From Naegleria gruberi (taxonomy: Eukaryota), in assembly GCA_000004985.1 (NCBI GenBank), contig GG738852.1: a DNA stretch of 64,000 bases; one strand, given 5' to 3'. This document shows positions 7,474 through 56,857 of this stretch, piece after piece (the first letter of the stretch is position 1; each line of letters opens with the position of its first letter). The translations under genes and the position numbers were made by a program. A model generated the notes under the pieces. It was not told the origin of the DNA and did not search any database. It saw only the letters and a program-made list of their open reading frames with translations.

Positions 7474-7992
7474 TTATTGTTTCCACAAGCCAATTCCTCT
7501 ATTTCTTGCACTTGTTTCATATTGCTTGTATTCACTTTGATATTTAACATTGGGATGATAGAAAACAGCTCTAGCATAACCTCCTTCCAATAGCATTTTC
7601 TGAAAATTATTTCCTCCAACCCAAACATGTGCCAATAATCTTCCATAACCATCTCTCAATTCATTTTCAAACTCTAGAATGATACTTGCATTTTCTAGTA
7701 CCTGCTTTGTGTAATCTGAAGCAGCCTGTCCATAGTATTCCTTCTTCTTTTTAGGATGAACTGTTTCGGGTGTATCCACTCCAATCAATCGAATTCTTTC
7801 CTTCTCTCCATCACGCATTTTACAAATAATTGTATCACCATCGACAACTCGCAATACACGAATATTCTTCATTTGGGAATTTCTGGTCGGTTCCTGAACG
7901 AGTGGTAAATTTAAATTTGAATTTTGAAAGGAATTCTTCCAAATAATCGTTCCGATCAAGAGGATTGCAAAAATCAGCACTTTGAGTTCCAT
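7474..7992 (-). CDS. Secreted staphylococcal-nuclease-like (thermonuclease / SNase) domain protein
   Basis: 172-aa ORF with an N-terminal hydrophobic signal peptide (LKVLIFAILLIGTIIW). The SNase core is recognisable: VLRVVDGDTIICKMRDGEKERIRLIGVDTPET...KEYYGQAASDYTKQVLENASIILEFENELRDGYGRLLAHVW...LLEGGYARA. The catalytic Arg/Glu/Arg and the Ca-binding DGDT / D-T-P-E motifs are all present. Confidence 0.85.
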   Translation of the reverse strand: MELKVLIFAILLIGTIIWKNSFQNSNLNLPLVQEPTRNSQMKNIRVLRVVDGDTIICKMRDGEKERIRLIGVDTPETVHPKKKKEYYGQAASDYTKQVLENASIILEFENELRDGYGRLLAHVWVGGNNFQKMLLEGGYARAVFYHPNVKYQSEYKQYETSARNRGIGLWKQ

Positions 7993-8040
7993 TTTTTTTA
8001 ATGCATTTTCTGTTGTTCATGAACTAGCAAATCGAACAGT

Positions 8041-11000
8041 TTATTTTGTTTCAAAATAGGAATGTTCCATAATTTCTTTAGCTTGTGGTCTTTTGGATGG
8101 GTTTTTCTCCAACATTAAAATGATGATTTCCTGTAGTGTGTCTGAATACTTGCCACATTCAGAGAGCTTGTTTTTAAGCCATTGCTTTACATCATTGGTA
8201 GACTCTGATTGCATGTATAAATTACTAATGGATGTAACTAGGTCACCTGTGCATAATTGATAAATTGCAACTCCTAGAGAATACACATCAGTGTTAAAGC
8301 TATACTTTGCTCCAAGACCTAATTCTGGAGACATGTAAAGAGGAGTTCCAGCATAAGAATTATTGACAGAACCAAACATTTGTTTCGCAAGACCAAAATC
8401 TGCCAATACTATCGATACAGAATTATCTGATAATTCATTAATAAAGATATTGTTAGGTTTTACATCTCTGTGAATCATTTTAAGGTTGGTGTGAACAAAG
8501 CTCAAGGCATCACAGCCTTGATAAAGTATTTGTTTCACAATATCCTCACTAATAGTACCTGCTGCTTTAGGAATGAGTTTTGTCAAGTCTCCATTTTCAT
8601 AATAGTCCATGTCAATAAGTAATATTTGATCCTTGTCAATAAATAAATCATTCACTTTTAAAATGTTTGGGTGATTGATATTCATCAATTGAGTTCCTTC
8701 TTTCATAATCGAGTTCAATTCCTCAATATCAGAATATTTGACAACTTTTAGCGCCTTCAGTTTATCGCCCATCTTGGTATCGTTGCATTTAAAAACTGAC
8801 CCAAATCCGCCTTGTCCAATCTTCTCCAAATTCTTATATCTTGAGGCAGGATCGAAATTAGATGCAGATGATATTATAGAAGTGACAGTAAGTCCATTAG
8901 AGTTTGTTGAACCTCCAATTATGGATTTGAAACGAACACTTTCGTCCGATGGAAAGTCTGAACTATATGATGATGGCGCAATGCTAGAATTCATTTTGTT
9001 ATACTGTGAATCATTGAGTTCAATCATGCTCTCTCCCTGATTAGGGAAATCATTGACAGTGTTTGGGACTGGTTTCTGCTTTTTCATTCCTCTAAAAACT
9101 ATAATGAAAACAATTATGACCACAATAATCAATATAACAATAACTAAAAGAGAAAGTCCGACTGCTAAACCAATTATTAAACCTAGTTGATTATTGCCTA
9201 CTATTGTTGAAGAACCAACTCTTGTTGCAATGTTAACATTGCAACTAGAACCTGTCCATCCAGCATTACAGTTGCAATAGTTATAATCAGTGCATTTTCC
9301 ATTTGAGGAACAAGAGTTGGTGTTATTGGAATAAATTCCATAACACATGGTTACTTCACAATATTTTCCATAGAAATTACTACCACAACTACAAGTATCA
9401 TGAGATGAACAACTTCCTCTCGAAGAACAAACAGAAGAATCAGTGCTTTGAGTACCATTACAAAGAGATACCTTACATTCAGTTCCTTGATAGAATGGTT
9501 CACACTGACAAGTGTCTGCTGCTACACAGGTACCATGGCCCCCACAAACAGAAGCATCAGTGGATAACTTTCCAAAACATTTTCTGGTATCACAATTGAC
9601 TCCATAAAATCCATTATTGCATGAACACGAATTGTAATCGATACATGTACCATTGGAGGAACAAACTGAAGTGTCATTCGAAAACTTTCCATAACACATG
9701 GTTACTTCACAATATTTTCCATAGAAATTACTACCACAAATACAAGTATCATGTGCGTTGCATACTCCCCTTAAAGATGAGCATACCAATGTAGAATTAC
9801 TTAATGTACCGTTACAAGTTGTAATTTTACAGTCAGCTCCAAGGTAAAGGCTGTCACATCTGCAAGTGTCACTAGAAATACATGCTCCATGGCCGCTACA
9901 AACATTACTTGTATCGTTTGATAATTTACCAAAACAACTCAATAAATTACACTGAGATCCATAGAATCCTGAGTTGCACTGACAAGTGTCTGGTGCAATG
10001 CATGTACCATTTCTTGAACAAGCATTTGGCTGCTCTGAGCTAAAACCAAAACATGTTGGGATGCATGCATTATAATATTGGTTCAAAATGTAGGGAGAGT
10101 CACAATATGGGGTCAATTGTCTTACAGTATTTTTCTGATTATCAACAAAAACAATTTCAGAAGTAGAGGTAATGAATGCTCCACTAGGGCTTAGAGTGGC
10201 TTTAGTGGCATCGGGACCATCATCATTGAATCCAACCAGGTTTGATCCACCATTTCCTGCCATTGTAGATATAATTCCATTTGCTGCTAATCGCATTCTG
10301 TTTTGTCCTCTGTCAGAAATGACAATAAAATTCGAAATACTTGATCCAAATACAGAAATAGGTGAGAGACCTGCATATAAAATATTACCATTATCATTCA
10401 GACTTGCACCCAACCCAGAGTAAACATTCAGAATATTGGTGCTTGAATCCACATACATGACGCTCAATTTCGAGTTATAGTATGCCAAAAAGTAAAATCC
10501 AGTCGGTGAAACATATATTCCTCCATCTACACTAATTGTGACAGAATTAGCTTGCGATGATCCAGGAATAAATGTTGATTCTGAACTGATAGTTCCAGCA
10601 ACATTTGTTATTATTCCATTGGAATTGATCTTCCTTATCAGAAAATTATCCACAATGAAAACCTCATTAGCAGAAGTGACAAAAATACCAGTTGGGAAGC
10701 TGAATACATTTGGGTGAGCAAAAAGAGTTTTGAAACTTACTAAAGTCTTGCACTGAGAGCATTGACACCATCATCACCTAAATATCCACTGGAAGGTGGC
10801 TGTGATCCAGTACCTGCAATAGTAACAATGGTACCATTAGTGAATATTTTTCTAATTCTTCTATTAACACTGTCTGATATGTATACTTCATTCTTGAATT
10901 CAAATACAGAACTAGGATAGTTCAGTTGAGCTGTGGAAGCATCCATATAATCGCTATTGTATCCAGCAACTCCGGTACCAGCTATCGTAATTATAGTTCC

Positions 11001-12594
11001 ATTAGCAAACACCTAACAATCATTTAAATCAAATATGAGAATTAGAATCAATACAAACCTTGCGAATTCTGTGATTACCAGTATCGGCAATCAAGTATTG
11101 TCCATTGCTAGTTTTAACAACATTGGCAAGTTGGTTGGTCATAAATTTGAATGTTGCCTTAGTTGCTTGAGAACCATCTTGTTGTAATGTTAAATATTAA
11201 TATTAAATAATGGAATTAATCATACATACCTCCACTAAATGTAGAACCTCCTATTCCAGCAACTGTTGTAATAATTCCAGTACTAGTAGAAATCCTTCTC
11301 AATCTCATATTATCTGAAATGAATACTTCACCAGGAGAAGTTGAAAAAACTCTAATTGGGCTAACATTTACCAAATTTGCTTGAACATTATCCTTATAAT
11401 TAGTATAAGAGGATGTTCCTGTTCCAGCAATAGTAACAATGGTACCATTAGTTAATACCTTTCTCAATCTATTACTGCCCAACTCTGCAATCCATATCTC
11501 ACCGTTACTGTCAACAGAAACACCATAAGGATAACTTGTCAAGTTAGTTAAAAAAACATACATCTAAAAAAACCTACTCAAGTTTAGCTGCAGTAGCCAG
11601 CATTCCATCACCATTATATCCCTCCTCACCAGTACCTGCGACAGTAATAATTGTTCCATTCGTTAAAACCTTTCGAATTCTGAAATTTCCTGCATCAGCT
11701 ATATAAATTTCATTGTTGCTCGTGACAAAGATTCCCTGAGGGTTAGTGAGACGAGCATAGGTGGCAGGTATTCCATCCCCATTGTACCCAAAACCCAAAC
11801 CAGTTCCACTTGTTCCAATTTGTGTGCCATTTCCAGCTACTGTTGTAATAACTCCCGTTGAAACATTAACCATCCTAATGTAATGATTCTGATATTCTGA
11901 AATATAAACGTTTCCATTTGAAGAAACAAATACGTCAACAGGAGAGTTGAGATAGGCATTTGTAGCAAGCATTCCATCTCCATTATATCCAGCATTTCCG
12001 TTTCCTTATGAAGGATTAGTCCTATATCTTTACAACAACAACCACTTACCTGCTATTGTCACAATATTGCCATTAGTTTGAATCTTTCTAACTCTAGAAT
12101 TTTGACTATCAGCAATATAAATTTCAGAATTAAAAACAAATACACCAGTGGGTGTATTGAGCTGAGCTGTAGTTGCTTGAATATTATCGCCATTGTACCC
12201 AGAAACTCCAGTACCTAAATTTTCCAGCACATCATCATACCAAGATGTGAAACACATTTGTTTCCATAACAATATGTGTGCATGTGTAAAATAAATTTTG
12301 TCATGAGAAAAACATACCAGCAATGGTGAGAACGGTTCCATTAGCTGCAAATACTCTCACTATTCTATGATTGCTATTATCAGAAATAAATAAATCACCC
12401 GAACTGAGATCTTTAAAACAACTATTGACATCAATATTGGCCATTTTGGCATCTATTCCACTGGATAATGAATTGTAGCCAGCAATGGTCGTGATGTTAT
12501 ACTTGACAGAGATTGCGCCAATAACTAAACCGCTGCCATGGTAGGTCAAAATGAGTAGGCACAGAATCCAAACAACCTTTGCATCTGCCAACAT
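8041..12594 (-). CDS. Receptor Ser/Thr protein kinase with signal peptide, NHL-repeat beta-propeller, tenascin-type EGF repeats and one TM helix; about 7 exons
   Basis: Exon 1 (12594 to ~12320) has an ATG and signal peptide (MLADAKVVWILCLLILTYHG). Exons 2-6 (~12216-12050, ~12002-11581, ~11537-11228, ~11177-11069, ~11022-10758) each encode NHL-type blades (TNGTI.TIAGTG...YNGDG..AT.A.L..P.GV.V...G..YIAD..N.RIRK). The introns are 43-100 nt with GTATGT/GTAAGT/GTTTGT donors and AG acceptors, and the reading frame is continuous across each junction. The terminal exon (~10703-8041) encodes further propeller sequence, about 8 Cys-rich EGF-like repeats (C..G.YG..C...C.G), a TM helix (IIGLAVGLSLLVIVILIIVVIIVFIIVF) and a kinase domain. 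The kinase domain has IGQGGFGSVFKC, ALKVVK, HRDVKPNNIF, DFGLAK and GTPLYMSPE. The ORF track M at 10653 is a GTG. Confidence 0.7.
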
Positions 12595-25940: not shown

Positions 25941-26162
25941 ATGTTTTCAAGACTTTTTAATACCATCTTCCCAAGGTCGAGAGTTACCGGAAGACGTCCA
26001 TTCCTTGCTGCTTCACTCCTTTTTGGTGCCTACATGGCTGCTACATTACCAGTTAATCGTACTGGTGGAGAAGCTACTGGTGCTGATATTGCACAATCTA
26101 CACTTGTTTCCGATCAACTTGCTGATGATTCTACTAACGAACAATTCTCTAAGAATAATTAA
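25941..26162 (+). CDS. Small (73 aa) single-TM protein with a presequence-like N-terminus; possibly a small mitochondrial membrane subunit
   Basis: MFSRLFNTIFPRSRVTGRRPFLAASLLFGAYMAATLPVNRTGGEATGADIAQ... Third codon positions are C-rich (highly-expressed-type bias). The N-terminus is basic and hydroxylated, and one hydrophobic helix follows. The function is a guess. Confidence 0.4.
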   Translation: MFSRLFNTIFPRSRVTGRRPFLAASLLFGAYMAATLPVNRTGGEATGADIAQSTLVSDQLADDSTNEQFSKNN

Positions 26163-26351
26163 TAATTAGAATTAATTTTGCCATCATTTTACTATCAATT
26201 ATCAATCAATATATTGTGCAAATTAATTTTCGGAATTTATGAAGAATTAATAGCAACAATTTACTTTTTGGAAATAACTCTATCCTTCTTCCCTATCCTT
26301 CTCCCTACCTCCCAATCATCAATGACAATAAAAAACAAATAATTTATAAAT

Positions 26352-28490
26352 TTAATATTCTCTATTGAGGAAAGCATCAAGAGATAATTGTCTTGGATCA
26401 TTGTTTGGACCCTTGACAGGTTTTACAGATTTCACATAAATAACTTCATCATCATCATCATCTGACATGTCATCAGCAGCAGTTGTGGAATCAGTCTTAG
26501 TCTTTTTTGAAGACTTGCTACTGTCACTTTCTTCAGATTTACGTTTCTTTGGAGATTTGGCATCTTCACTAGTGGAGCTCTTCTTTTTAGGAGAAACCAT
26601 AGTTTCTGATGTTTTTCTTTTAGGGTTAGCAGGAGCTTCTGGATAAACACAATCTAATCCCTTCTTTGTGCATGTAAGACATGATGGAATATGTCTGCTA
26701 CACTTCTTGTGAGATTTTTTGCAACAGAGGCAAGAAAAATATGACAATTGTTCTTCAGAATTCTCAGTTTCTGATGATGAACTAGATGCTGTAGATTTCT
26801 TATCTTTCTTAGATTTGCTACGTTTTTCAGAAGCTTTTTCTTTTTTACCTGCAGATTTCTTATCTTTCTTAGATTTGCTACGTTTTTCTACTTTTTCTAC
26901 TTTTTCAACCTCACAAACAGATGTATCAAGTCCTCCAACCTCAAAATCCATCTCGTTTGGTATTGAGGAAGGAGTGGTAGAAGTTGGCGTAATTAAGGAG
27001 ATGGTTTCAATAGCCTTATCAGCTGAATTGCTATCGGGATTTTTGGTAACATCCAAAGTAAGTTGTCCTTTTTCATGTTTTTCATTCTTTTTGGTTTTCT
27101 TTTCAGCTTTCTTTTCATTCTTAGTGTCAGATTTTTGCTCGGATTTCTTTTCAGTCTTGTCTTCAATCTTATCCTCCACCTTCTTTTCAGACTTATTTTC
27201 AGTCTTGTCATCTACATTCTTATTATCTTCATCATTCTTCTTATTTTTTCTATTTTTCTTCGTTTTTTTGTTTTCTGTTGTTGGCTTTTCACTCATTTCA
27301 ACATCTTTTGTCTGTTCGAAAGGCTTTTCTTGTGGGCTTTTCACTGATTCTTGAGAGCTTATTTGAGAATTATCCTTTGAATTTTCCTTGTTCTTCTCTT
27401 TTTTCGACTTTTTGTCCTGTGTCGCCTTATTGTTTTGAGATGATTCCTTTTGCTCCTTTTGTACCTCTGTTGTTTTTGGTTGCTCTTTAGTTTGTTTTTC
27501 TGTGATTTTTGGTTGCTCTGGCTTCTCTTGAGAGCTACTTTGTAATGTTCCATTTGTTGGTTGAGTAACATGTTGATTTTCTATAGCCTTTTTTGATTTT
27601 TCATCCTTCTTTTGAAGATATCTTGGTTTATCCTTAGGCTGTTCCTTTGGTTGGATTTTTGGCTTTTCTTGTGAGCTTGCCACTGATTCTTGAGAGCTAT
27701 TTGGCAAAATTGCGATTGGACTTTCTTGTTGTTTCTGTGAGGTTCCATTTGGTTGGGCTAGAGGTTTCTCTTGTGTAACTTGTTGGATAGTTGGTTTAAT
27801 TGACTCGATTATATTAGATTTGGCTATTATTGGGGATTCCTTAGACAGCACGATAGCAGCTGGTTCAGGTTGTGAAATAGTTTCAGGCTTATTCTCGACG
27901 GAAGCAACAACTGGATTAAATTTTGCTTTGAAACTATTTTCTTTTTTGTCTTTCATTCTACCCTTCAGTCGGGAAACTAATTTGTTGAAGGTTTTGACTT
28001 GGCTTGGTGGTGTAGATGATGTTGTAATAATACTAGCATATGCATTTGTAGAGTTCGTAGCATTTGTATTTGAACAAGTTGTAGTGTTTGATGATTCATT
28101 AGAAGCTTGTTTAGGTGTTTGTTTTTTTGGTTTCTTCTTCACTTCCTCGGAATCTGATTCACTCTCATCGCAATACATTGACTCCCAATCTTCTTCTTCA
28201 TCTTCCGAATCATGATTTATACTAAAATCCTCATCCTCTTCCTCTCTATATTCTGTTGGCCTTGAAATAATGTCATCTTCATCACTTGATTCATCCACAA
28301 AAAAATCATCATTTAATACATCGTCATCCTCCTCGTCCTCCATTAAATTTAAAATGCTCGGATCCAATAAATCATCACCATCATCCTCCTCGTAAACTAC
28401 TACTGTCTTGGTCTTCCTTGGGGATTCAGCCTTTCCTTTGTCTTTACTGATTGTTTTACCGGAGAGTGTTTTCTGGACGGTCTTTGGCAT
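26352..28490 (-). CDS. Low-complexity acidic/Lys-Ser-rich nuclear-type protein with a Zn2Cys6 binuclear-cluster-like motif
   Basis: 712-aa ORF with ATG at 28490. It has an acidic N-terminus (DEEDDDVLNDDFFVDESSDEDD), then a long K/E/S/T/Q-rich region. Near the C-terminus is CLCCKKSHKKCSRHIPSCLTCTKKGLDCVY, which is C-x2-C-x6-C-x6-C-x2-C-x6-C. A bipartite NLS-like KKRK follows. Confidence 0.55.
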   Translation of the reverse strand: MPKTVQKTLSGKTISKDKGKAESPRKTKTVVVYEEDDGDDLLDPSILNLMEDEEDDDVLNDDFFVDESSDEDDIISRPTEYREEEDEDFSINHDSEDEEEDWESMYCDESESDSEEVKKKPKKQTPKQASNESSNTTTCSNTNATNSTNAYASIITTSSTPPSQVKTFNKLVSRLKGRMKDKKENSFKAKFNPVVASVENKPETISQPEPAAIVLSKESPIIAKSNIIESIKPTIQQVTQEKPLAQPNGTSQKQQESPIAILPNSSQESVASSQEKPKIQPKEQPKDKPRYLQKKDEKSKKAIENQHVTQPTNGTLQSSSQEKPEQPKITEKQTKEQPKTTEVQKEQKESSQNNKATQDKKSKKEKNKENSKDNSQISSQESVKSPQEKPFEQTKDVEMSEKPTTENKKTKKNRKNKKNDEDNKNVDDKTENKSEKKVEDKIEDKTEKKSEQKSDTKNEKKAEKKTKKNEKHEKGQLTLDVTKNPDSNSADKAIETISLITPTSTTPSSIPNEMDFEVGGLDTSVCEVEKVEKVEKRSKSKKDKKSAGKKEKASEKRSKSKKDKKSTASSSSSETENSEEQLSYFSCLCCKKSHKKCSRHIPSCLTCTKKGLDCVYPEAPANPKRKTSETMVSPKKKSSTSEDAKSPKKRKSEESDSSKSSKKTKTDSTTAADDMSDDDDDEVIYVKSVKPVKGPNNDPRQLSLDAFLNREY
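26793..26888. repeat. Direct repeat of a 36-nt unit (2 copies, about 60-nt period) inside the coding sequence 26352-28490
   Basis: agatttcttatctttcttagatttgctacgtttttc occurs at about 26793-26828 and again at about 26853-26888. On the minus strand this encodes the duplicated peptide RSKSKKDKKS. Confidence 0.6.
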
Positions 28491-34708: not shown

Positions 34709-35965
34709 ATGAAAAGAAAACTTGAAAAGAAACAAGTGCTTGTGGGAAAGAAGATCAAAATGAAGAGCATTGAATTATTCCCTGATGATATTTGTTATGA
34801 AATATTAAAATATTTAAATTTTCAACAAGTGCTACTGAACGCATGTAAAATTTCAAAGCAATTTTACAGAATTTCCACCACAAGATATGAATTTACAATC
34901 AAATCGGAAGAAACTGCTGATGATTGGTTCAAATACAAAAGTATTTGGACTAAATTTGTTAAATATTGTGAAAAACACCATTGCCCCTATTTGAAGAATG
35001 TTAGAACATTGATAATTATTGACGTGTTGTTGGTTTTAGATGATGATGAATGGGAAATTGTTTGTGCAATGAAGGAATTGAGAGAATTGAGATTGGAAAT
35101 TTTTATTAAAACTTTGGAAAACAAGCAAATTCAAATGTTGGCTAAACATTTAACAAAACTGGAAAAGATTATATTAGGTGGTAATGTTAGTGATGAAAAT
35201 GTTCAACAATTTCAATTATTTCCAAATTTAACAAGTTTGAAAATACCACAGGGTCATATTACTAATTTGAAAAATATAGCCAAATTAGAAAAATTGACTG
35301 AATTGGATATTGGAGAATGTTGTGATATTGTGTTGGACGATGGTCTCAGTCCTCTGGCTTTAATGAAAAATCTGACAAGTTTGTCTCTTTCAAAAATTGT
35401 ATTCGCACCTGAAGAGTACAAGCCCATCACACAATTACCTCGCCTTGTCTCTTTGGATGTGTCCTCTTCAGATAATACTGTTGAATCAATCAAGATATTG
35501 ACAAGCTCACTAAAGCAGTTAACAATATTTAACATTAGCAACAATTTTCTGATTGGGGATGAAGCTGCTCGATTAATTGGAGAATCACTGAAACAATTAA
35601 CATTTTTAAACATCAGCAATACCAATTTACAACCACAAGGAGTTAAATATATTTGTGAATTGACAGAGTTGAGACATCTTGAAATGGGAGAAAATCAGAT
35701 TTTCGATCAGGAGGTGGTTTTCATTTGCAAATCAAAATTTTCATCCAAATTGACAAACTTGGATTTGAAAAATACTAGAATTTCAAAAGAATGTCTCAAA
35801 TCACTATCTACACTCGACAATCTTCAATATCTTAATTTGATGTTTACAGAAATAGACAAATCCAACATTACATTTCCATTCAAGAAATTGAGATTCCTCA
35901 CACTTAAGGAAAATAACCTAGATGGAGATGAATTGGAAGAATTGACCAATTTCAATCAACAATAA
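34709..35965 (+). CDS. F-box-like / leucine-rich repeat protein
   Basis: 418-aa ORF. The N-terminus has an F-box-like motif (LFPDDICYEILKYLNFQQVLLNACKISKQFYRI). Multiple LRRs follow (LTELDIGECCDIVLDDGLSPL..., LTFLNISNTNLQPQGVKYICELTELRHLEMGENQI...). Confidence 0.7.
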   Translation: MKRKLEKKQVLVGKKIKMKSIELFPDDICYEILKYLNFQQVLLNACKISKQFYRISTTRYEFTIKSEETADDWFKYKSIWTKFVKYCEKHHCPYLKNVRTLIIIDVLLVLDDDEWEIVCAMKELRELRLEIFIKTLENKQIQMLAKHLTKLEKIILGGNVSDENVQQFQLFPNLTSLKIPQGHITNLKNIAKLEKLTELDIGECCDIVLDDGLSPLALMKNLTSLSLSKIVFAPEEYKPITQLPRLVSLDVSSSDNTVESIKILTSSLKQLTIFNISNNFLIGDEAARLIGESLKQLTFLNISNTNLQPQGVKYICELTELRHLEMGENQIFDQEVVFICKSKFSSKLTNLDLKNTRISKECLKSLSTLDNLQYLNLMFTEIDKSNITFPFKKLRFLTLKENNLDGDELEELTNFNQQ

Positions 35966-36991: not shown

Positions 36992-38800
36992 TTACTCAAT
37001 TGTACATGGAAGATTATTAATCTCGAAAACTCTCTTCATAATATCAAAGTGATATTGGATATTTGGATGTATATCATGAAAATACAAACCCTTATCAATG
37101 ATCATATGGATAAGGTTTTTGTCTTGTTTTAACCTTTCGCTGGCATATCTTATTGATCTTGGATTGTTCAACACTGCCTTGTATACAATTTCTCTATCAT
37201 CCCTTAATTCTGGATTCAAATACTCAAGCCATTCTCCCTGCTTACTCACCAATTCTAGTGCCAATAATCTTGGAATTCCATGTAAAGATTTTGCAGGAAA
37301 GTAAGTAGCGTCATCGATTGAAATTATCCTCAAAAGCTGGCCACATTTTAACATTTCATCTGAAACAAATACAATACTATATGGATCTATCTTAACAAGT
37401 TCTTTCATGAATTCCATATCGTTCCATAAATTTGGATCTATCATTTGTTGGAGTTTGTCATTGAGGATTAGTAATGGTTTTTTCTTTTTGAATAGTTCCT
37501 TAATAAGTTCTCTGTCCGATCTGTACTTTGCAGGTATTTCTTTGAAATGAATCAAGTATTGAAGAGCTGATTCTCTAGTGTCAACCTTTTCCAGATTTCT
37601 CTTTATAAATCCTTTGTAATTTTCAATGAATTCTTTAATTTCTTCTGCAGGATTGACTACTTGTTTACAGATGCTGTCAGCGAGAGATCCATTTCCAAAC
37701 AAATCTTTCACAATTCTTTTAAAGTACTTATTGGTAAATTGCTTATTTTCCAACAAATCCTTATCCGACATTGATAATGGAGCTTTGAGTCCCAATGAGA
37801 GAATCACATCTGGATCCCTGCTACAATAGCAACTATAAGAAAAACCGGGCTCAATTTTGAGAGCCTTAATCATGAATTCCTTATCCTTTAACAGTTCCTT
37901 TCCAACAAATTGCAAAATATATTGTGGATGATTACCCATGCCTGTTTCTATTAATCCATAATCTTGACCAGATTTAATGGCAGCCATGGCAATCTTTGGA
38001 TCATTCTTGAGATTATCAGTTGCATGTGCAATAGAATATGGATTTGAATTGACAGCTTGCATGACAATTTCTGGATCTGATTTAAAAGTATCGCTTGCAA
38101 ATTTCAAAGCAGCACCATTTAACTTTACAGCCTTTGAGACAATTGACTTGTCATTCTTGAATTTCTCTTCAACAAATTGCAAAGCGAGTGGATTACTTTT
38201 GACAGCCATTAATACTACTGCCTTTTTGTTTCTCAATTTTTCACTAGCAAATTTGATACATTCTCCTTGTTTTCTAATGGCCTTTAACATGAGTTCTTTA
38301 TCATCTTTAATCAAAGGTATCACCTTTGACCAGTCATGATCATGAATATGTGAATTCAAGTCTAATAATTTGTTAATGACATCTCTGTCATGTAGCAATT
38401 CTTCTGGAAGATGATCGAGAACCAATCTGTTCAATTTCATAATCACCTCCTTATCCTTCCTAAATTCCTCTGGCAAATGATCAATTTGAATAAATTCCGA
38501 TTTTGAATCGAGTAATTTCATAATAAAATCTCTATCCTTAGTGGTGGATAACCTTTCTCTGAAATCCAACAATCCAATCCTATACAATTCCCTCAGGCAT
38601 TCAATCTTGTTATTGGTGAATAAATAATTTTCGAGAGTTTTTTCCCTTTTATTACTTGTTGTGTTGAGAAATTGTGATGATGAGAAATTTCTAGTCATTG
38701 TAAATATTGACGATGATGATTTGAGAGTTTGAATGAATCCCGAAGATGGTGATGAACCCTGTAAGGAGAACAATCTAACCTTGTTAACAAGTTGTTTCAT
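36992..38800 (-). CDS. DUF4116-repeat protein
   Basis: 602-aa ORF with at least 8 tandem units of about 35 aa. The units follow the pattern D.E.V..AV..N..AL.YAS..LK.D (e.g. DKSIVSKAVKLNGAALKFASDTFKSDPEIVMQAVNSNPYSIAHATDNLKNDPKIAMAAIKSG; DREIVYKAVLNNPRSIRYASERLKQDKNLI), which is typical of DUF4116. Confidence 0.6.
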   Translation of the reverse strand: MKQLVNKVRLFSLQGSSPSSGFIQTLKSSSSIFTMTRNFSSSQFLNTTSNKREKTLENYLFTNNKIECLRELYRIGLLDFRERLSTTKDRDFIMKLLDSKSEFIQIDHLPEEFRKDKEVIMKLNRLVLDHLPEELLHDRDVINKLLDLNSHIHDHDWSKVIPLIKDDKELMLKAIRKQGECIKFASEKLRNKKAVVLMAVKSNPLALQFVEEKFKNDKSIVSKAVKLNGAALKFASDTFKSDPEIVMQAVNSNPYSIAHATDNLKNDPKIAMAAIKSGQDYGLIETGMGNHPQYILQFVGKELLKDKEFMIKALKIEPGFSYSCYCSRDPDVILSLGLKAPLSMSDKDLLENKQFTNKYFKRIVKDLFGNGSLADSICKQVVNPAEEIKEFIENYKGFIKRNLEKVDTRESALQYLIHFKEIPAKYRSDRELIKELFKKKKPLLILNDKLQQMIDPNLWNDMEFMKELVKIDPYSIVFVSDEMLKCGQLLRIISIDDATYFPAKSLHGIPRLLALELVSKQGEWLEYLNPELRDDREIVYKAVLNNPRSIRYASERLKQDKNLIHMIIDKGLYFHDIHPNIQYHFDIMKRVFEINNLPCTIE

Positions 38801-54563: not shown

Positions 54564-54957
54564 TATCCTTTCTGGTATTAATAAATTGGAGCTGCAACAA
54601 TGTTTTACTCCGCGTTTTAATGGCAATCAAAGGATTTGATTAACTGATGACTTCTTGCTTTTTTTTTAAATGGAAAAAAGTATGAAGTTGGCCAAACACT
54701 GATTTGAGAGCAATCCAGATAACTCTTTTTAAATGAAATGTAATTTCAAATAACATTGTAATTTCTCTCTCAACACTGTCTAGGATGTTAGACACAAATG
54801 TCAGTTATGGAGCGAGCATAATAATTGAAAATATTTTACAAAACATTAATATTTATACATAAAGTTTTTAATTTTTTGAATGCCCTGATGGAGGTGGGAT
54901 GGCCCGGGTTTTTAGGAACAGTTTGTTTGGAAACAATGAAAAATCCAATTATATAAA

Positions 54958-56232
54958 TTATTGTGAGATGAATGACTTGTTAATAACCTTAACCTTATCG
55001 ACTGGAACTAATCTGTAAACTGGATTTGGTAATAAAGCTTCAACAATCTTCTTTTCATCAATGAGTTCCTTAACACTGACGTTAATTCTATCAGCAGAGA
55101 AAGAGTTAATTGGCAAACCTTCAATAACACCGTATTGACCAGCACCGAAACATTGCACTGGCATAGAACTCCAAATACCTCTTGGAATACCATATTGACC
55201 TTTGCTTGGAATGGCCATAGAAACCCATTCACTGTTACCCAAAACCCAATCACGCATGTGTTTAACAGCAGCATCAGCGGCAGAAGCAGCAGATGACTTT
55301 CCTCTAGCACCAATAATAGCAGCACCTCTTTGTTGAACCTTTGGAATGAAATCTTCGGTTATCCACTTTTCGTCATTGATCAAGTTCATGGCCCATTGTC
55401 CGTTGACAGTGGTGAATGAAAGATCTGGGTATTGAGTAGCAGAGTGGTTACCCCAAATAGCAAATCGTGAAATATCGGAAACGGTACATCCAAGCTTATT
55501 AGAAATTTGTGCCAAGGCTCTATCATGGTCAAGTCTAGTCAAGGCAGTAATATTTTCTTGTGGAATATCAGGAGCATTGAGAGATGTGATCATGGCATTA
55601 GTGTTGGCTGGGTTAGCAACAATCAAGACCAAAACATCACCATTAGCATTAGAGTTCAAAGCTTCACCTTGCTTCTTGAAGATGGCAGCATTATCCTTCA
55701 TAACATCAGCTCTTTCCATACCTGGACCTCTTGGCTTACCTCCGAGCAAAACAGCATAGTCTGTACCTCTGAAAGCTTCAGATTCACTATCGGTAATGAA
55801 AATTTCTTCAAGGAGTGGGAAAGCACCATCTTCCAATTCCATTTTAACACCTTCCAAAGCCTTCATGGATTGTGGGACGTCCAACAATCTCAATCTGACT
55901 GGTTGATTTTCACCCAACATTTCACCAGTGGCAACTCTGAACAACAAGCTATAGGCAATTTGACCAGCAGCACCTGAAACGGTAACTGTAACTGGAGGAG
56001 CAAGTTGATCGACATCCTTGGTCATGACTCTTGGGCCTTCTCTGGCACTCTTGTTGATCCACTTACCAACAGTCTTGATATCCTTTACATCAACACCAGC
56101 AAAGTCAGCCTTGGTTTGCTTACCGAGCAACATACGTTCAAGAGGTGTCTTGGTGAGGGACATTTCTTGGTCCATTTGAGCACCACGTTGCTTCAAAGTG
56201 CTATAATTACGACCTAAAATGTTGTTTTTCAT
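54958..56232 (-). CDS. Malate dehydrogenase, cytosolic (MDH1/LDH-like NAD) type, with a roughly 70-90-aa N-terminal extension
   Basis: ATG at 56232. The core from VTVTVSGAAGQIAYSLLFRVATGEMLGENQPVRLRLLDVPQ onward matches MDH1 throughout, including the NAD-binding GAAGQIAY, catalytic IWGNHS and substrate Arg residues. Upstream, about 90 in-frame codons with the same C/G-rich third-position bias precede it (MKNNILGRNYSTLKQRGAQM...). Internal Mets are at residues about 20, 34 and 71. Confidence 0.9.
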   Translation of the reverse strand: MKNNILGRNYSTLKQRGAQMDQEMSLTKTPLERMLLGKQTKADFAGVDVKDIKTVGKWINKSAREGPRVMTKDVDQLAPPVTVTVSGAAGQIAYSLLFRVATGEMLGENQPVRLRLLDVPQSMKALEGVKMELEDGAFPLLEEIFITDSESEAFRGTDYAVLLGGKPRGPGMERADVMKDNAAIFKKQGEALNSNANGDVLVLIVANPANTNAMITSLNAPDIPQENITALTRLDHDRALAQISNKLGCTVSDISRFAIWGNHSATQYPDLSFTTVNGQWAMNLINDEKWITEDFIPKVQQRGAAIIGARGKSSAASAADAAVKHMRDWVLGNSEWVSMAIPSKGQYGIPRGIWSSMPVQCFGAGQYGVIEGLPINSFSADRINVSVKELIDEKKIVEALLPNPVYRLVPVDKVKVINKSFISQ

Positions 56233-56470
56233 CAAATAAAATTATATGTGTTCAATATATTCAACATCAAATAATTATCATCATTAATTTTTATAATTTT
56301 TAAAAGTCGGTTCGTTAAAAACATCAATTATTCAATTATTGGTAAAAATTAGAAAGTGTAAATCAAATTAATAATAATAAATAGATATCGTACGTGTTGT
56401 CTTGGACAATTGTTGAGTAAGTCTCTTCATTTGTTTCGATATTTTTTTTAGGAATTTACAATATTTATTT

Positions 56471-56507
56471 TTTGCTGCTGAGTTGACTCTCCCAGCAAAA
56501 AATGCCT
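56471..56507. other. Perfect 10-bp inverted repeat (hairpin potential) in the divergent MDH/ICMT intergenic region
   Basis: ttttttgctg ctgagttgactctcc cagcaaaaaa: the 10-bp arms are exact reverse complements, with a 15-nt loop. Confidence 0.4.
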
Positions 56508-56857
56508 TGTCGCACTTCTTTGCTCAGTTATTAAAATCTTCCTCTGATATGTTGTGAATTGGATTAGAGATGATGATTTAATTACCAAGTTATTTGAAGT
56601 AGTAATAGTGAAAGAATATTTGAGTCTCTAATGACAATTCTTTCATGGAAGGGGATGGAAATTTTTTTTGTTCCGATTCAAAATTTCCTTCATTTTAATC
56701 TTCTCTTATGGATTGATTAATTATCAAAAGTTAAAGTATCACTACAATCACAAGAAGAAGAACTATTTGATGATAAAAGCTTCTGGTGACCCTGATGACA
56801 TGTAAACGGACTGAACTTTGATTTCATTGTTCCTGTTGATTATCAAAAATCAAAAAA

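What the first reader, a model, noticed from the sequence alone, without database searches (positions are those of the whole stretch)
8041..12594. Multi-exon receptor kinase combining an NHL beta-propeller, tenascin-type EGF repeats and a Ser/Thr kinase
Five short upstream exons, each encoding one or two NHL blades, join a large terminal exon that contains more propeller, about 8 EGF-like Cys repeats, one TM helix and an active-looking Ser/Thr kinase (HRDVKPNN, DFG and SPE present). Propeller-plus-EGF ectodomains on a kinase are unusual outside metazoan and plant receptor kinases. Encoding the repeats one per exon suggests exon-shuffling origin of the ectodomain. The ORF track misses the first six exons because the introns break the frame.
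Basis: partly seen in the sequence, partly recalled or inferred. Interest (0 to 1): 0.55.

Follow-up and report, generated by a model that had tools for sequence, protein, structure and literature searches.

The report
Amoeba NHL–EGF receptor Ser/Thr kinase gene
This is an intact seven-exon gene from a Naegleria-like amoeba for a membrane receptor whose outer part is two NHL propellers on an EGF stalk and whose inner part is an active-looking Ser/Thr kinase. It is a new member of an uncharacterised family already present in the published Naegleria genomes, so it is a modest finding.

Summary
On the minus strand, 12594→8041, seven exons joined by six short GT..AG introns (41-103 nt) give one 1407-aa reading frame. 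Its parts, in order:
- a signal peptide
- 12 NHL blades
- 7 six-Cys teneurin-type EGF units (not about 8)
- one TM helix
- a conserved juxtamembrane segment
- a kinase with every catalytic motif intact

All six junctions restore the NHL motif and align without gaps to two N. gruberi homologues.

The kinase is not TKL/RLK-like. It scores as generic Pkinase and is closest to STE20/NEK kinases by sequence and by fold.

The architecture is not unique. At least 15 proteins of N. gruberi, N. fowleri and N. lovaniensis, plus several metagenome proteins, share the same TM, juxtamembrane motifs (DFPSDxS, DPxSRY) and kinase (50-62% identity) behind NHL and/or EGF ectodomains. They are annotated only as hypothetical proteins or kinases, and I found no paper describing them.

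Exon shuffling is not supported:
- No intron lies at a domain boundary.
- Only exon 2 equals one repeat.
- The EGF array grew by a 351-nt duplication inside the terminal exon.

Verdict: a real gene, a new member of a known but unstudied heterolobosean receptor-kinase family. Interest is modest.

The parts
8041..12594 (-). Whole coding region (ATG 12594 to stop 8041-8043): 7 exons, 6 introns, 1407 aa
   Evidence: Spliced translation has no internal stop. Domains by Pfam.
12318..12594 (-). Exon 1 (277 nt): start codon, signal peptide, NHL unit 1
   Evidence: The N-terminus resembles that of N. lovaniensis P0445.
12529..12594 (-). Signal peptide, about aa 1-22 (MLADAKVVWILCLLILTYHGSG)
   Evidence: N-terminal hydrophobic segment in the Kyte-Doolittle scan. 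The cleavage site is inferred by eye.
12215..12317 (-). Intron 1 (103 nt, GTATGT..TTTAG, phase 1), after ..TIAG
12050..12214 (-). Exon 2 (165 nt, phase 1-1): exactly one NHL unit (aa 94-148)
12005..12049 (-). Intron 2 (45 nt, GTAAGT..ATAAG, phase 1), at the same repeat position as intron 1
   Evidence: Its length is a multiple of 3, but it carries an in-frame TAA.
11578..12004 (-). Exon 3 (427 nt): NHL units 3 and 4 and the first third of unit 5
11535..11577 (-). Intron 3 (43 nt, GTAGGT..ACAAG, phase 2), between ..AKL and DYPYGV
11230..11534 (-). Exon 4 (305 nt): rest of unit 5, unit 6, start of unit 7
11178..11229 (-). Intron 4 (52 nt, GTATGT..ACAAG, phase 1)
11059..11177 (-). Exon 5 (119 nt): middle of NHL unit 7
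11013..11058 (-). Intron 5 (46 nt, GTTTGT..GTTAG, phase 0)
10741..11012 (-). Exon 6 (272 nt): end of unit 7, unit 8, first third of unit 9
10700..10740 (-). Intron 6 (41 nt, GTAAGT..TTCAG, phase 2), at the same repeat position as intron 3
8041..10699 (-). Exon 7, terminal (2659 nt): NHL units 9-12, Cys linker, 7 EGF units, TM, juxtamembrane segment, kinase, stop
   Evidence: AF2 model of this exon's product.
10105..12495 (-). NHL array, aa 34-720 (12 units of 54-66 aa; genomic span includes the six introns); inferred to form two six-bladed beta-propellers
   Evidence: Pfam TEN_NHL and NHL. Repeat table. 40% identity over 676 columns to N. gruberi P0109. The P0109 AF2 model (pLDDT above 90) superposes half by half on six-bladed NHL domains. 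Best solved relative is the Bacillus teneurin-like protein 9IFO, E 5e-71.
9241..10104 (-). Cys721-Cys734 linker plus 7 six-Cys teneurin/tenascin-type EGF units (aa 738-1008)
   Evidence: Cys map. Pfam EGF_Teneurin, EGF_2 and EGF_TEN. Seven repeated small beta-hairpin modules in the AF2 model.
9258..9402 (-). Copy 1 of the intra-exon tandem duplication (partner 9609-9753, spacing 351 nt = 3 EGF units, 80% nt identity)
   Evidence: the repeat finder family D4. At protein level EGF2-3-4 resemble EGF5-6-7.
9609..9753 (-). Copy 2 of the same duplication
   Evidence: family D4.
9088..9186 (-). Transmembrane helix, aa 1027-1059, followed by RGMKKQK on the cytoplasmic side
   Evidence: Hydropathy peak 4.1. 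Single long helix in the AF2 model.
8839..9087 (-). Juxtamembrane segment, aa 1060-1142, with the family motifs IEL, SDFPSDES and DPASRY
   Evidence: Alignment of 15 family members. Predicted disordered.
8053..8838 (-). Protein kinase domain, aa 1143-1404 (RD type). Key residues: K1173, E1189, D1267, N1272, D1289, activation-loop S1303 and T1307, E1314
   Evidence: Pfam Pkinase E 3.7e-54. Motifs. Residues invariant in 19 family kinases. PDB relatives NEK1, MST3 and HPK1. pLDDT 75-95.

Best explanation
The locus is one functional nuclear gene of a heterolobosean amoeba related to Willaertia and Naegleria. It encodes a type I single-pass receptor-like Ser/Thr kinase.

Shown:
- A signal peptide is followed by 12 NHL blades, a stalk of seven six-Cys EGF modules carrying many N-glycosylation sequons, one TM helix and a cytoplasmic RD-type kinase with all catalytic residues.
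- A juxtamembrane segment has motifs shared with a multigene family in N. gruberi, N. fowleri and N. lovaniensis.

Inferred:
- The 12 blades form two six-bladed propellers, held away from the membrane by the EGF stalk, and these propellers are the ligand-binding part.
- Binding of an extracellular ligand (unknown; a bacterial or cell-surface molecule is plausible for a bacterivorous amoeba) brings receptors together.
- The kinases then trans-phosphorylate the activation loop. S1303 sits where STE20 kinases carry their activating phosphosite. The conserved DFPSDxS segment may also be phosphorylated, and the signal passes to cytoplasmic targets.

Gene history, inferred:
- The gene's shape (short 5' exons, one huge 3' exon) reflects 5'-biased intron retention in an intron-poor genome.
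- The repeats grew by intragenic duplication.
- Neither feature points to exon shuffling.
For: Gene model:
- One frame of 1407 aa after removing six GT..AG introns.
- Each junction restores the NHL motif and is gap-free against N. gruberi P0109 and P0065.
- Every retained intron gives an early stop.

Domains and topology:
- Pfam hits.
- 12 NHL units and 7 EGF units.
- Signal peptide, one TM helix with positive charges on the inside, and 17 NxS/T sequons outside against 4 inside.
- AF2 of the terminal exon product shows EGF modules, one long helix, a disordered linker and a kinase fold.

Propellers:
- The homologue P0109 is modelled with pLDDT above 90 over 640 aa.
- Six-bladed NHL domains (SOQ1 7djj/7djm) superpose on 325-342 columns at 2.1-3.3 A.

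Kinase activity:
- K1173, HRD, N1272, DFG, S1303, T1307, E1314, D1326 and R1392 are conserved in all 19 family kinases aligned.

Family:
- Kinase identity is 50-62% to Naegleria proteins that carry NHL and/or EGF ectodomains.
- The juxtamembrane motifs are shared.
- E-values jump from 1e-51 to 1e-31 between the family and the next kinases.

Organism and context:
- Eukaryotic neighbours in the window.
- The MDH gene is 78% identical to Willaertia magna.

Gene structure in relatives:
- N. lovaniensis P0445 has three introns, all in the NHL part, and a 2.4-kb terminal exon.
- The metagenome locus L001 is built the same way.
Against: - There is no transcript or protein evidence for this gene. No identical or near-identical protein was found in the 5.8-billion-protein collection.
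- The ligand, oligomerisation and phosphosites are inferences from other receptor kinases, not results.
- NHL unit 10 is degenerate.
- The kinase group (STE20-like, NEK-like or an orphan 'Other') was not settled by a phylogeny.
Confidence: 0.8

Rival explanations
1. Exon-shuffled mosaic. The ectodomain was assembled from one-repeat-per-exon modules, as in metazoan mosaic proteins.
For: - Exon 2 is a symmetric phase 1-1 exon equal to one NHL unit.
- Introns 1 and 2 share repeat position and phase, and so do introns 3 and 6.
- Two of the three N. lovaniensis P0445 introns fall at about the same two repeat positions. Some introns may therefore have been copied together with repeat units.
Against: - Phases are 1, 1, 2, 1, 0, 2, and five of the six upstream exons are not module-sized or not symmetric.
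- No intron lies at any domain boundary. The last 3.6 NHL units, all 7 EGF units, the TM and the kinase are in one exon.
- EGF expansion is a 351-nt duplication within that exon.
- Intron number and positions differ between family members.
Confidence: 0.08
2. Two genes: a secreted NHL protein upstream, and a separate EGF-TM-kinase gene in the terminal ORF.
For: The ORF finder reports the terminal 870-aa ORF as a stand-alone unit. N. gruberi has NHL+EGF proteins without a kinase (P0065, P0012) and kinase-only models (P0122, P0125).
Against: - The exon 6/7 junction lies inside NHL unit 9 and aligns without a gap to homologues.
- The terminal ORF has no signal peptide or plausible ATG at its 5' end.
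- Exon 6 ends in a stop only if intron 6 is read through.
- More than 10 Naegleria proteins carry NHL and kinase in one chain.
- The kinase-only N. gruberi models start inside the conserved juxtamembrane segment and look truncated.
Confidence: 0.03
3. The sensor part came from bacteria. The NHL array, and possibly the idea of an NHL-sensor kinase as in PknD, entered the heterolobosean lineage by ancient horizontal transfer and was then fused to a eukaryotic kinase. This concerns origin and is compatible with the best explanation.
For: - The NHL part is as similar to bacterial NHL proteins (38-46% identity, E = 0) as it is to Naegleria paralogues.
- The best solved relative by far is the Bacillus inaquosorum teneurin-like protein (9IFO, E 5e-71). 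Metazoan teneurins score 1e-15 and TRIM NHL domains 1e-12 (PMC13018210).
- The nearest non-family kinases include bacterial Hanks-type kinases.
Against: - The gene has spliceosomal introns and host-like composition, so any transfer is old.
- Consensus-like repeats inflate similarity.
- The protein collection is dominated by prokaryotes, which biases the top hits.
- Domain order (sensor N-terminal, kinase C-terminal) is the reverse of PknD.
- The kinase matches eukaryotic STE20 and NEK kinases about as well as bacterial ones: 110 bits to NEK1 against 128 bits for the best of billions.
- No phylogeny was made.
Confidence: 0.3
4. Non-functional copy: a pseudogene, or a pseudokinase used only for adhesion.
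For: No expression evidence was found, and no 1:1 orthologue above 62% kinase identity.
Against: - The 4.2-kb frame is intact in DNA where stops are expected about every 14 codons.
- All six splice sites are canonical.
- Every catalytic residue is conserved.
Confidence: 0.05

Closest known systems
Naegleria NHL/EGF receptor-type Ser/Thr kinases (uncharacterised). Examples: N. gruberi XP_002678153.1 (P0433), XP_002674300.1, XP_002672252.1, XP_002673894.1, XP_002674574.1 and P0109; N. lovaniensis XP_044550582.1 (P0445) and XP_044542747.1; N. fowleri XP_044565022.1 (P0506)
   Same: - Signal peptide, NHL array with or without teneurin-type EGF units, one TM helix, and a C-terminal kinase 50-62% identical.
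- The same juxtamembrane motifs: I/L-E-L/M, DFPSDxS and DPxSRY.
- Introns confined to the NHL part, with a large terminal exon.

   Different: - No close orthologue: ectodomain identity is only 28-40%.
- This member has 12 NHL + 7 EGF units. Relatives range from NHL-only to far longer ectodomains (848-2807 aa), and some have a GPS-like motif before the TM that this one lacks.
- It comes from another genus-level lineage.
Mycobacterium tuberculosis PknD and similar bacterial Hanks-type kinases with an NHL sensor (PDB 1RWI)
   Same: A single-pass membrane Ser/Thr kinase whose extracytoplasmic sensor is a bacterial-type NHL beta-propeller. The PknD sensor matches the NHL part at E 4.7e-12.
   Different: - In PknD the kinase is N-terminal and the propeller C-terminal, with one six-bladed propeller and no EGF (from established knowledge of PknD).
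- Here the order is reversed, with 12 blades, an EGF stalk and a spliced eukaryotic gene.
Teneurins and bacterial teneurin-like proteins (PMC3278476, PMC6297184, PMC13018210)
   Same: - The Pfam models that hit are the teneurin ones (TEN_NHL, EGF_Teneurin, EGF_TEN).
- The spatial layout is alike: an EGF stalk next to the membrane with the NHL propeller further out.
- The best solved NHL relative is the Bacillus TLP.
   Different: - Teneurins are type II proteins with TTR, FN-plug, YD shell and toxin-like domains, and no kinase.
- None of those domains is detected here.
- All 7 EGF units here have an even six Cys, so there is no obvious free Cys for teneurin-style covalent dimers.
Plant RLK/Pelle and animal receptor Ser/Thr and Tyr kinases (TKL and TK groups)
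   Same: Type I topology, a modular ectodomain, one TM helix, a cytoplasmic RD kinase, and a presumed ligand-induced oligomerisation mechanism.
   Different: - The kinase is not TKL or TK. PF00069 scores 184 bits against 109 for PF07714, the catalytic loop is HRDVKPNN, and the P+1 loop is GTPLYMSPE.
- The top PDB and fold matches are NEK1, MST3, HPK1, SLK and PAK.
- This implies an independent origin of the receptor architecture.
Entamoeba histolytica transmembrane kinases (TMKs)
   Same: A lineage-specific expanded family of single-pass receptor-like kinases with Cys-rich ectodomains in an amoeboid protist (from general knowledge; not tested here).
   Different: TMK ectodomains are CXXC/CXC-rich and lack NHL propellers, and the lineage is unrelated (Amoebozoa against Heterolobosea). 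No sequence comparison was run.

Membership tests
Naegleria-type NHL/EGF receptor Ser/Thr kinase family | C-terminal kinase domain that clusters with the family and is separated from other kinases | tested here: met
   50-62% identity to 19 family kinases. E-values run from 1e-96 to 1e-51 inside the family, then 1e-31 outside it.
Naegleria-type NHL/EGF receptor Ser/Thr kinase family | Single TM helix followed by the conserved juxtamembrane motifs (I/L-E-L/M, DFPSDxS, DPxSRY) | tested here: met
   Alignment of 15 members; the window protein has IEL, SDFPSDES and DPASRY. TM at 1027-1059.
Naegleria-type NHL/EGF receptor Ser/Thr kinase family | N-terminal signal peptide and an ectodomain of bacterial-type NHL units, with or without teneurin-type EGF units | tested here: met
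   Pfam; repeat map. The same domains occur in P0445, P0433, P0453, P0457, P0420, P0383, P0410 and P0382.
TKL-group receptor kinases (plant RLK/Pelle, IRAK, TGF-beta receptors) | Kinase domain of TKL type (best match PF07714; TKL relatives on top) | tested here: not met
   PF00069 scores 184.3 bits against 109.4 for PF07714. No TKL kinase appears among the best 60 PDB sequence hits or the best 50 fold hits.
STE20-group kinases | Groups with STE20, MAP4K and PAK kinases in a kinome phylogeny | tested here: inconclusive
   - MST3 and HPK1 are among the best sequence hits, but NEK1 is first and CDPK and MEK1 score about the same.
- Fold hits are led by HPK1, SLK, STK10 and PAK.
- No tree was built.
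Teneurins | Type II topology with the FN-plug/NHL/YD-shell superfold | tested here: not met
   The topology is type I: signal peptide, with the TM helix after the ectodomain. No YD/RHS, TTR or FN-plug Pfam hit.
Bacterial PknD-type NHL-sensor kinases | N-terminal cytoplasmic Hanks kinase, TM helix, C-terminal NHL propeller; prokaryotic gene | tested here: not met
   The domain order is reversed. The gene has six spliceosomal-type introns and eukaryotic neighbours.
Exon-shuffled mosaic genes | Modules encoded by symmetric (usually 1-1) exons, with introns at module boundaries | tested here: not met
   Only exon 2 qualifies. There are no introns at domain boundaries, and the EGF units are all in one exon.
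Active protein kinases (against pseudokinases) | Gly loop, beta3 Lys, alphaC Glu, HRD Asp, catalytic Asn, DFG Asp | tested here: met
   GQGGFG at 1150, K1173, E1189, D1267, N1272 and D1289. Enzymatic activity itself cannot be tested with these tools.

The most novel reading that the evidence does not exclude
This heterolobosean family is an independent invention of receptor Ser/Thr kinases. It was built by joining a bacterial-derived (teneurin-like or YvrE-like) double NHL propeller to a STE20-like kinase, rather than to a TKL or TK kinase. Amoebae use it to sense bacterial prey or kin at the cell surface. The window gene would then be a member from a lineage outside Naegleria, showing that the family predates the Naegleria/Willaertia split.
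Probability: 0.25. Interest if true: 0.55.

Novelty: new member of a known kind. Interest (0 to 1): 0.3.

Why it matters
Receptor kinases arose several times in eukaryotes: animal RTKs and RSTKs, plant RLKs, and Entamoeba TMKs. A family in Heterolobosea that pairs bacterial-type NHL propellers and teneurin-type EGF stalks with a non-TKL kinase would be one more independent solution.

It also offers candidate surface sensors in a group that includes the pathogen Naegleria fowleri. That species has members of the family (XP_044565022.1, XP_044566999.1).

This particular gene adds a well-defined, intron-resolved member from a related genus. It also flags probable truncated annotations in N. gruberi. 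It does not reveal a new kind of system.

Tried and rejected
I modelled the N. gruberi homologue P0109 and the terminal-exon product instead.
- Exact-sequence look-ups gave nothing on record for the neighbouring nuclease and for N. gruberi P0122, P0109 and P0433. N. gruberi intron positions could therefore not be compared.
- tblastn of the model against the rest of the window found no paralogue and no other kinase, NHL or EGF coding region.
- TRF found no DNA-level tandem arrays apart from trivial ones. The NHL units are only 60-78% alike at DNA level, so they are old repeats.
- Six literature searches and two papers found nothing on Naegleria or heterolobosean NHL/EGF receptor kinases. The N. 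gruberi genome paper is not held.
- Rejected: bacterial contamination, because of the introns and the eukaryotic neighbours.
- Rejected: a TKL/RLK relationship.
- Rejected: teneurin membership.
- Rejected: a single 12-bladed ring, because six-bladed NHL domains superpose on half of the array at 2-3 A.
- The exhaustive representative search with the terminal exon was dominated by giant EGF-repeat proteins of heteroloboseans (N. gruberi, Percolomonas, Acrasis). That says little about the receptor itself.

Full report
**Observation**

The finding's coordinates are exact, but the gene lies on the minus strand. The bacterial-code ORF list shows the coding sequence broken into seven pieces in different frames between 12624 and 8041. 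The last piece is an 870-aa ORF that already contains NHL-like, Cys-rich, hydrophobic and kinase sequence.

Reading the minus strand, I placed six GT..AG introns at 12317-12215, 12049-12005, 11577-11535, 11229-11178, 11058-11013 and 10740-10700. The seven exons then give 4224 nt = 1407 aa with no internal stop, starting at the first ATG (12594).
- Intron lengths are 103, 45, 43, 52, 46 and 41 nt, and phases are 1, 1, 2, 1, 0 and 2.
- The introns are AT-richer (17-34% GC) than the exons (35-40% GC).
- Every intron, if retained, gives a stop within 1-10 codons.

So there are six upstream exons, not five as the finding says in one place. The 'six junctions' it mentions elsewhere is right.

**Support for the junctions without transcript data**

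Each junction recreates the canonical NHL unit..IAG|TG....IAG|NG....AKL|DYPYGV....FSG|DGSQAT....IRK|VFANGT....ARL|YFPTGI... In pairwise alignments with two N. gruberi proteins (P0109 and P0065), no alignment gap falls at any of the six junctions. The model aligns continuously from aa 66 to 721 with P0109 at 40% identity. At about 35% GC a stop is expected about every 14 codons (my arithmetic), so an 886-codon terminal exon cannot be chance.

**Anatomy**

Pfam gives Pkinase 1143-1404 (E 3.7e-54), TEN_NHL (5e-35), NHL (3.5e-27), EGF_Teneurin (1e-27), EGF_2 and EGF_TEN. The parts, from N- to C-terminus:
- **Signal peptide.** The N-terminus is a hydrophobic signal-like segment.
- **NHL array.** Residues 34-720 are 12 NHL units of 54-66 aa.
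- **EGF stalk.** A Cys721-Cys734 pair is followed by seven complete six-Cys EGF units (738-1008, period 39-40 aa).
- **TM helix.** There is one very hydrophobic segment at 1027-1059, followed by RGMKKQK. There are 17 N-glycosylation sequons on the outside and 4 inside.
- **Kinase.** It has GQGGFG (1150), K1173, E1189, HRDVKPNN (1265-1272), DFG (1289), SPE (1312), DVYSLG (1326) and KRP (1391). These residues, and activation-loop S1303 and T1307, are invariant in all 19 family kinases aligned.

An AlphaFold2 model of the terminal-exon product (mean pLDDT 69) shows seven small repeated EGF-like hairpin modules. It also shows one long helix at the TM position, a disordered juxtamembrane stretch and a confident kinase fold.

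The spliced ectodomain could not be submitted, so I modelled the N. gruberi homologue P0109. Its 640-aa NHL array is predicted at pLDDT above 90 as about 11.5 four-stranded blades; the N-terminus of that gene model is truncated. Solved six-bladed NHL domains (SOQ1, 7djj/7djm) superpose on 325-342 columns at 2.1-3.3 A. I therefore infer two six-bladed propellers rather than one large ring.

**What kind of kinase**

- PF00069 scores 184 bits against 109 for PF07714.
- The best solved relatives by sequence are NEK1, MST3/STK24, CDPK, NEK2, MEK1 and HPK1.
- The best by fold are HPK1, SLK, STK10, PAK, CDPK and WNK.
- No TKL or Tyr kinase appears in either list.

The catalytic loop (HRDVKPNN) and the P+1 loop (GTPLYMSPE) are of the Ser/Thr STE/NEK/CAMK style. 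S1303 lies four residues before the GTP motif, where STE20 kinases carry their activating phosphosite (comparison from general knowledge). Group membership was not settled by a tree.

**Relatives**

With the TM-to-kinase part as query, eight proteins score from 1e-96 to 1e-51. The next hits drop to 1e-31 and include bacterial Hanks-type kinases.

An exhaustive HMMER search of 1.84 billion representatives with the terminal exon, followed by Pfam scans and source look-up, shows a multigene family with NHL and/or EGF ectodomains and this kinase:
- N. gruberi: XP_002678153.1, XP_002674300.1, XP_002672252.1, XP_002674574.1, XP_002673894.1 and P0109
- N. lovaniensis: XP_044550582.1, XP_044542747.1, XP_044543693.1 and XP_044543675.1
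- N. fowleri: XP_044565022.1 and XP_044566999.1
- metagenome proteins: P0121, P0126 and P0128

Kinase identity to the window protein is 50-62% for all of these except XP_044566999.1 (P0418), an EGF-only member at 39%. Ectodomain identity is 28-40%. An alignment of 15 members shows shared juxtamembrane motifs: I/L-E-L/M after the TM, then DFPSDxS, then DPxSRY just before the kinase. The window gene is therefore a member of an existing, annotated but uncharacterised family. Six literature searches and two papers found no description of it.

**Source organism**

- GC is 30-38% throughout the window.
- The neighbours are eukaryotic: LRR proteins, a Sel1/TPR protein, DUF4116, PP2C, SAD/SRA, a prenyltransferase, Spc25 and an SNase homologue.
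- The malate dehydrogenase at 54958-56235 is 100% identical in protein, and 99.2% in DNA, to a metagenome contig.
- That MDH is 78% identical to Willaertia magna, 58% to Acrasis kona and 56% to an N. gruberi MDH.

The window is thus from a heterolobosean near Willaertia and Naegleria whose genome is not in the protein collection. There is no paralogue in the window.

**Exon shuffling**

- Only exon 2 (165 nt, phase 1-1) equals one NHL unit. The other junctions cut blades at four different positions with mixed phases.
- No intron separates NHL from EGF, EGF units from each other, EGF from TM, or TM from kinase.
- The EGF array expanded by a tandem duplication of a three-unit block inside the exon. 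Two 145-nt stretches 351 nt apart are 80% identical (9258-9402 and 9609-9753). At protein level EGF2-3-4 mirror EGF5-6-7.

Relatives show the same overall shape with different introns. N. lovaniensis P0445 has three introns, all in the NHL part, and a 2.4-kb terminal exon. The metagenome locus L001 has a multi-piece NHL part and a 1.96-kb terminal exon. The simplest reading is 5'-biased intron retention in an intron-poor genome plus intragenic repeat duplication.

Introns 1 and 2 share position and phase (after ..AG), and so do introns 3 and 6 (before x-P-x-G). Two of the three N. lovaniensis introns fall at about these same two repeat positions. Some introns may therefore have been copied with repeat units, or inserted repeatedly at the same site. 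That is repeat amplification, not shuffling of different domains.

**Origin of the sensor**

The NHL part is as similar to bacterial NHL proteins (38-46% identity) as it is to Naegleria paralogues. Its best solved relative is the NHL domain of the Bacillus inaquosorum teneurin-like protein (9IFO, E 5e-71). Other solved NHL domains score much lower (PMC13018210):
- SOQ1: 4.5e-25
- metazoan teneurins: about 1e-15
- the PknD sensor: 4.7e-12
- TRIM NHL domains: about 1e-12

An old bacterial origin of the NHL array is plausible but untested. Consensus-like repeats and a prokaryote-heavy database both bias this comparison. The protein is not a teneurin (type I topology, no YD shell, FN-plug or TTR). 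It is not a PknD-type kinase either (reversed domain order, spliced gene).

**Mechanism**

Shown: topology, domain order, intact catalytic machinery and family conservation.

Inferred:
- The two distal propellers bind an extracellular ligand.
- The glycosylated EGF stalk spaces them from the membrane.
- Ligand-driven clustering leads to trans-phosphorylation of the activation loop (S1303) and perhaps of the conserved DFPSDxS segment, switching on an RD kinase.

The ligand is unknown. For a bacterivorous amoeba, bacterial surface molecules or cell-cell recognition cues are reasonable guesses.

**Verdict**

This is a real, intact, correctly delimited gene. The exon-shuffling and rarity arguments are not supported. 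It is a new member of a known but unstudied heterolobosean receptor-kinase family, and interest is modest (0.3).

Noticed in passing
window 7474-8043 (minus strand): Only 48 nt separate the kinase stop codon (8041) from the ATG (7992) of the next gene on the same strand. That gene is a 172-aa staphylococcal-nuclease homologue with a hydrophobic N-terminus (Pfam SNase E 8.5e-28). The spacing is very compact.
   Followed up: partly
P0506, P0382, P0410, P0126 (family members; alignment): Several Naegleria and metagenome family members carry a GPS-like 'C..THL[TS]SF[SA]V' motif just before the TM helix, and UniRef names a few of these proteins 'GPS domain-containing'. The window gene lacks it. Some of these receptor kinases may be autoproteolytically cleaved like adhesion GPCRs.
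   Followed up: no
N. gruberi P0122, P0125, P0127, P0481: These kinase-only gene models of 217-290 aa begin inside the family's conserved juxtamembrane segment or inside the kinase. They are probably truncated annotations of receptor kinases. Their genomic loci could not be fetched.
   Followed up: partly
window 54881-56560; locus L002: The malate dehydrogenase gene is 99.2% identical in DNA to a 1686-nt metagenome contig (ERZ929261, PRJEB11402). The best named relative is Willaertia magna at 78%. The source species occurs in that environmental sample but is not itself in the protein collection.
   Followed up: partly
window 26001-28000: There is a strong negative AT skew (-0.32) over the 712-aa minus-strand ORF 26352-28490. 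That ORF has a fungal-type Zn2Cys6 domain and is probably low-complexity coding sequence.
   Followed up: no
locus L001 4680-9962 (metagenome contig NODE_78, ERZ2098899): A related receptor-kinase gene (NHL array, 2-3 EGF units, TM, kinase 55% identical) lies on a 26.7-kb eukaryotic metagenome contig. A prokaryotic gene caller split it into five pieces, and its N-terminus resembles N. lovaniensis P0445.
   Followed up: partly
top hits (P0361-P0380): The EGF block is about 40% identical to giant (2000-7000 aa) EGF-repeat proteins of N. gruberi, Percolomonas and Acrasis kona. Teneurin-type EGF arrays are therefore massively expanded across Heterolobosea.
   Followed up: partly
window 36992-38800, 526-2953, 34709-35965: The window holds a DUF4116 repeat protein and three LRR proteins.
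   Followed up: no
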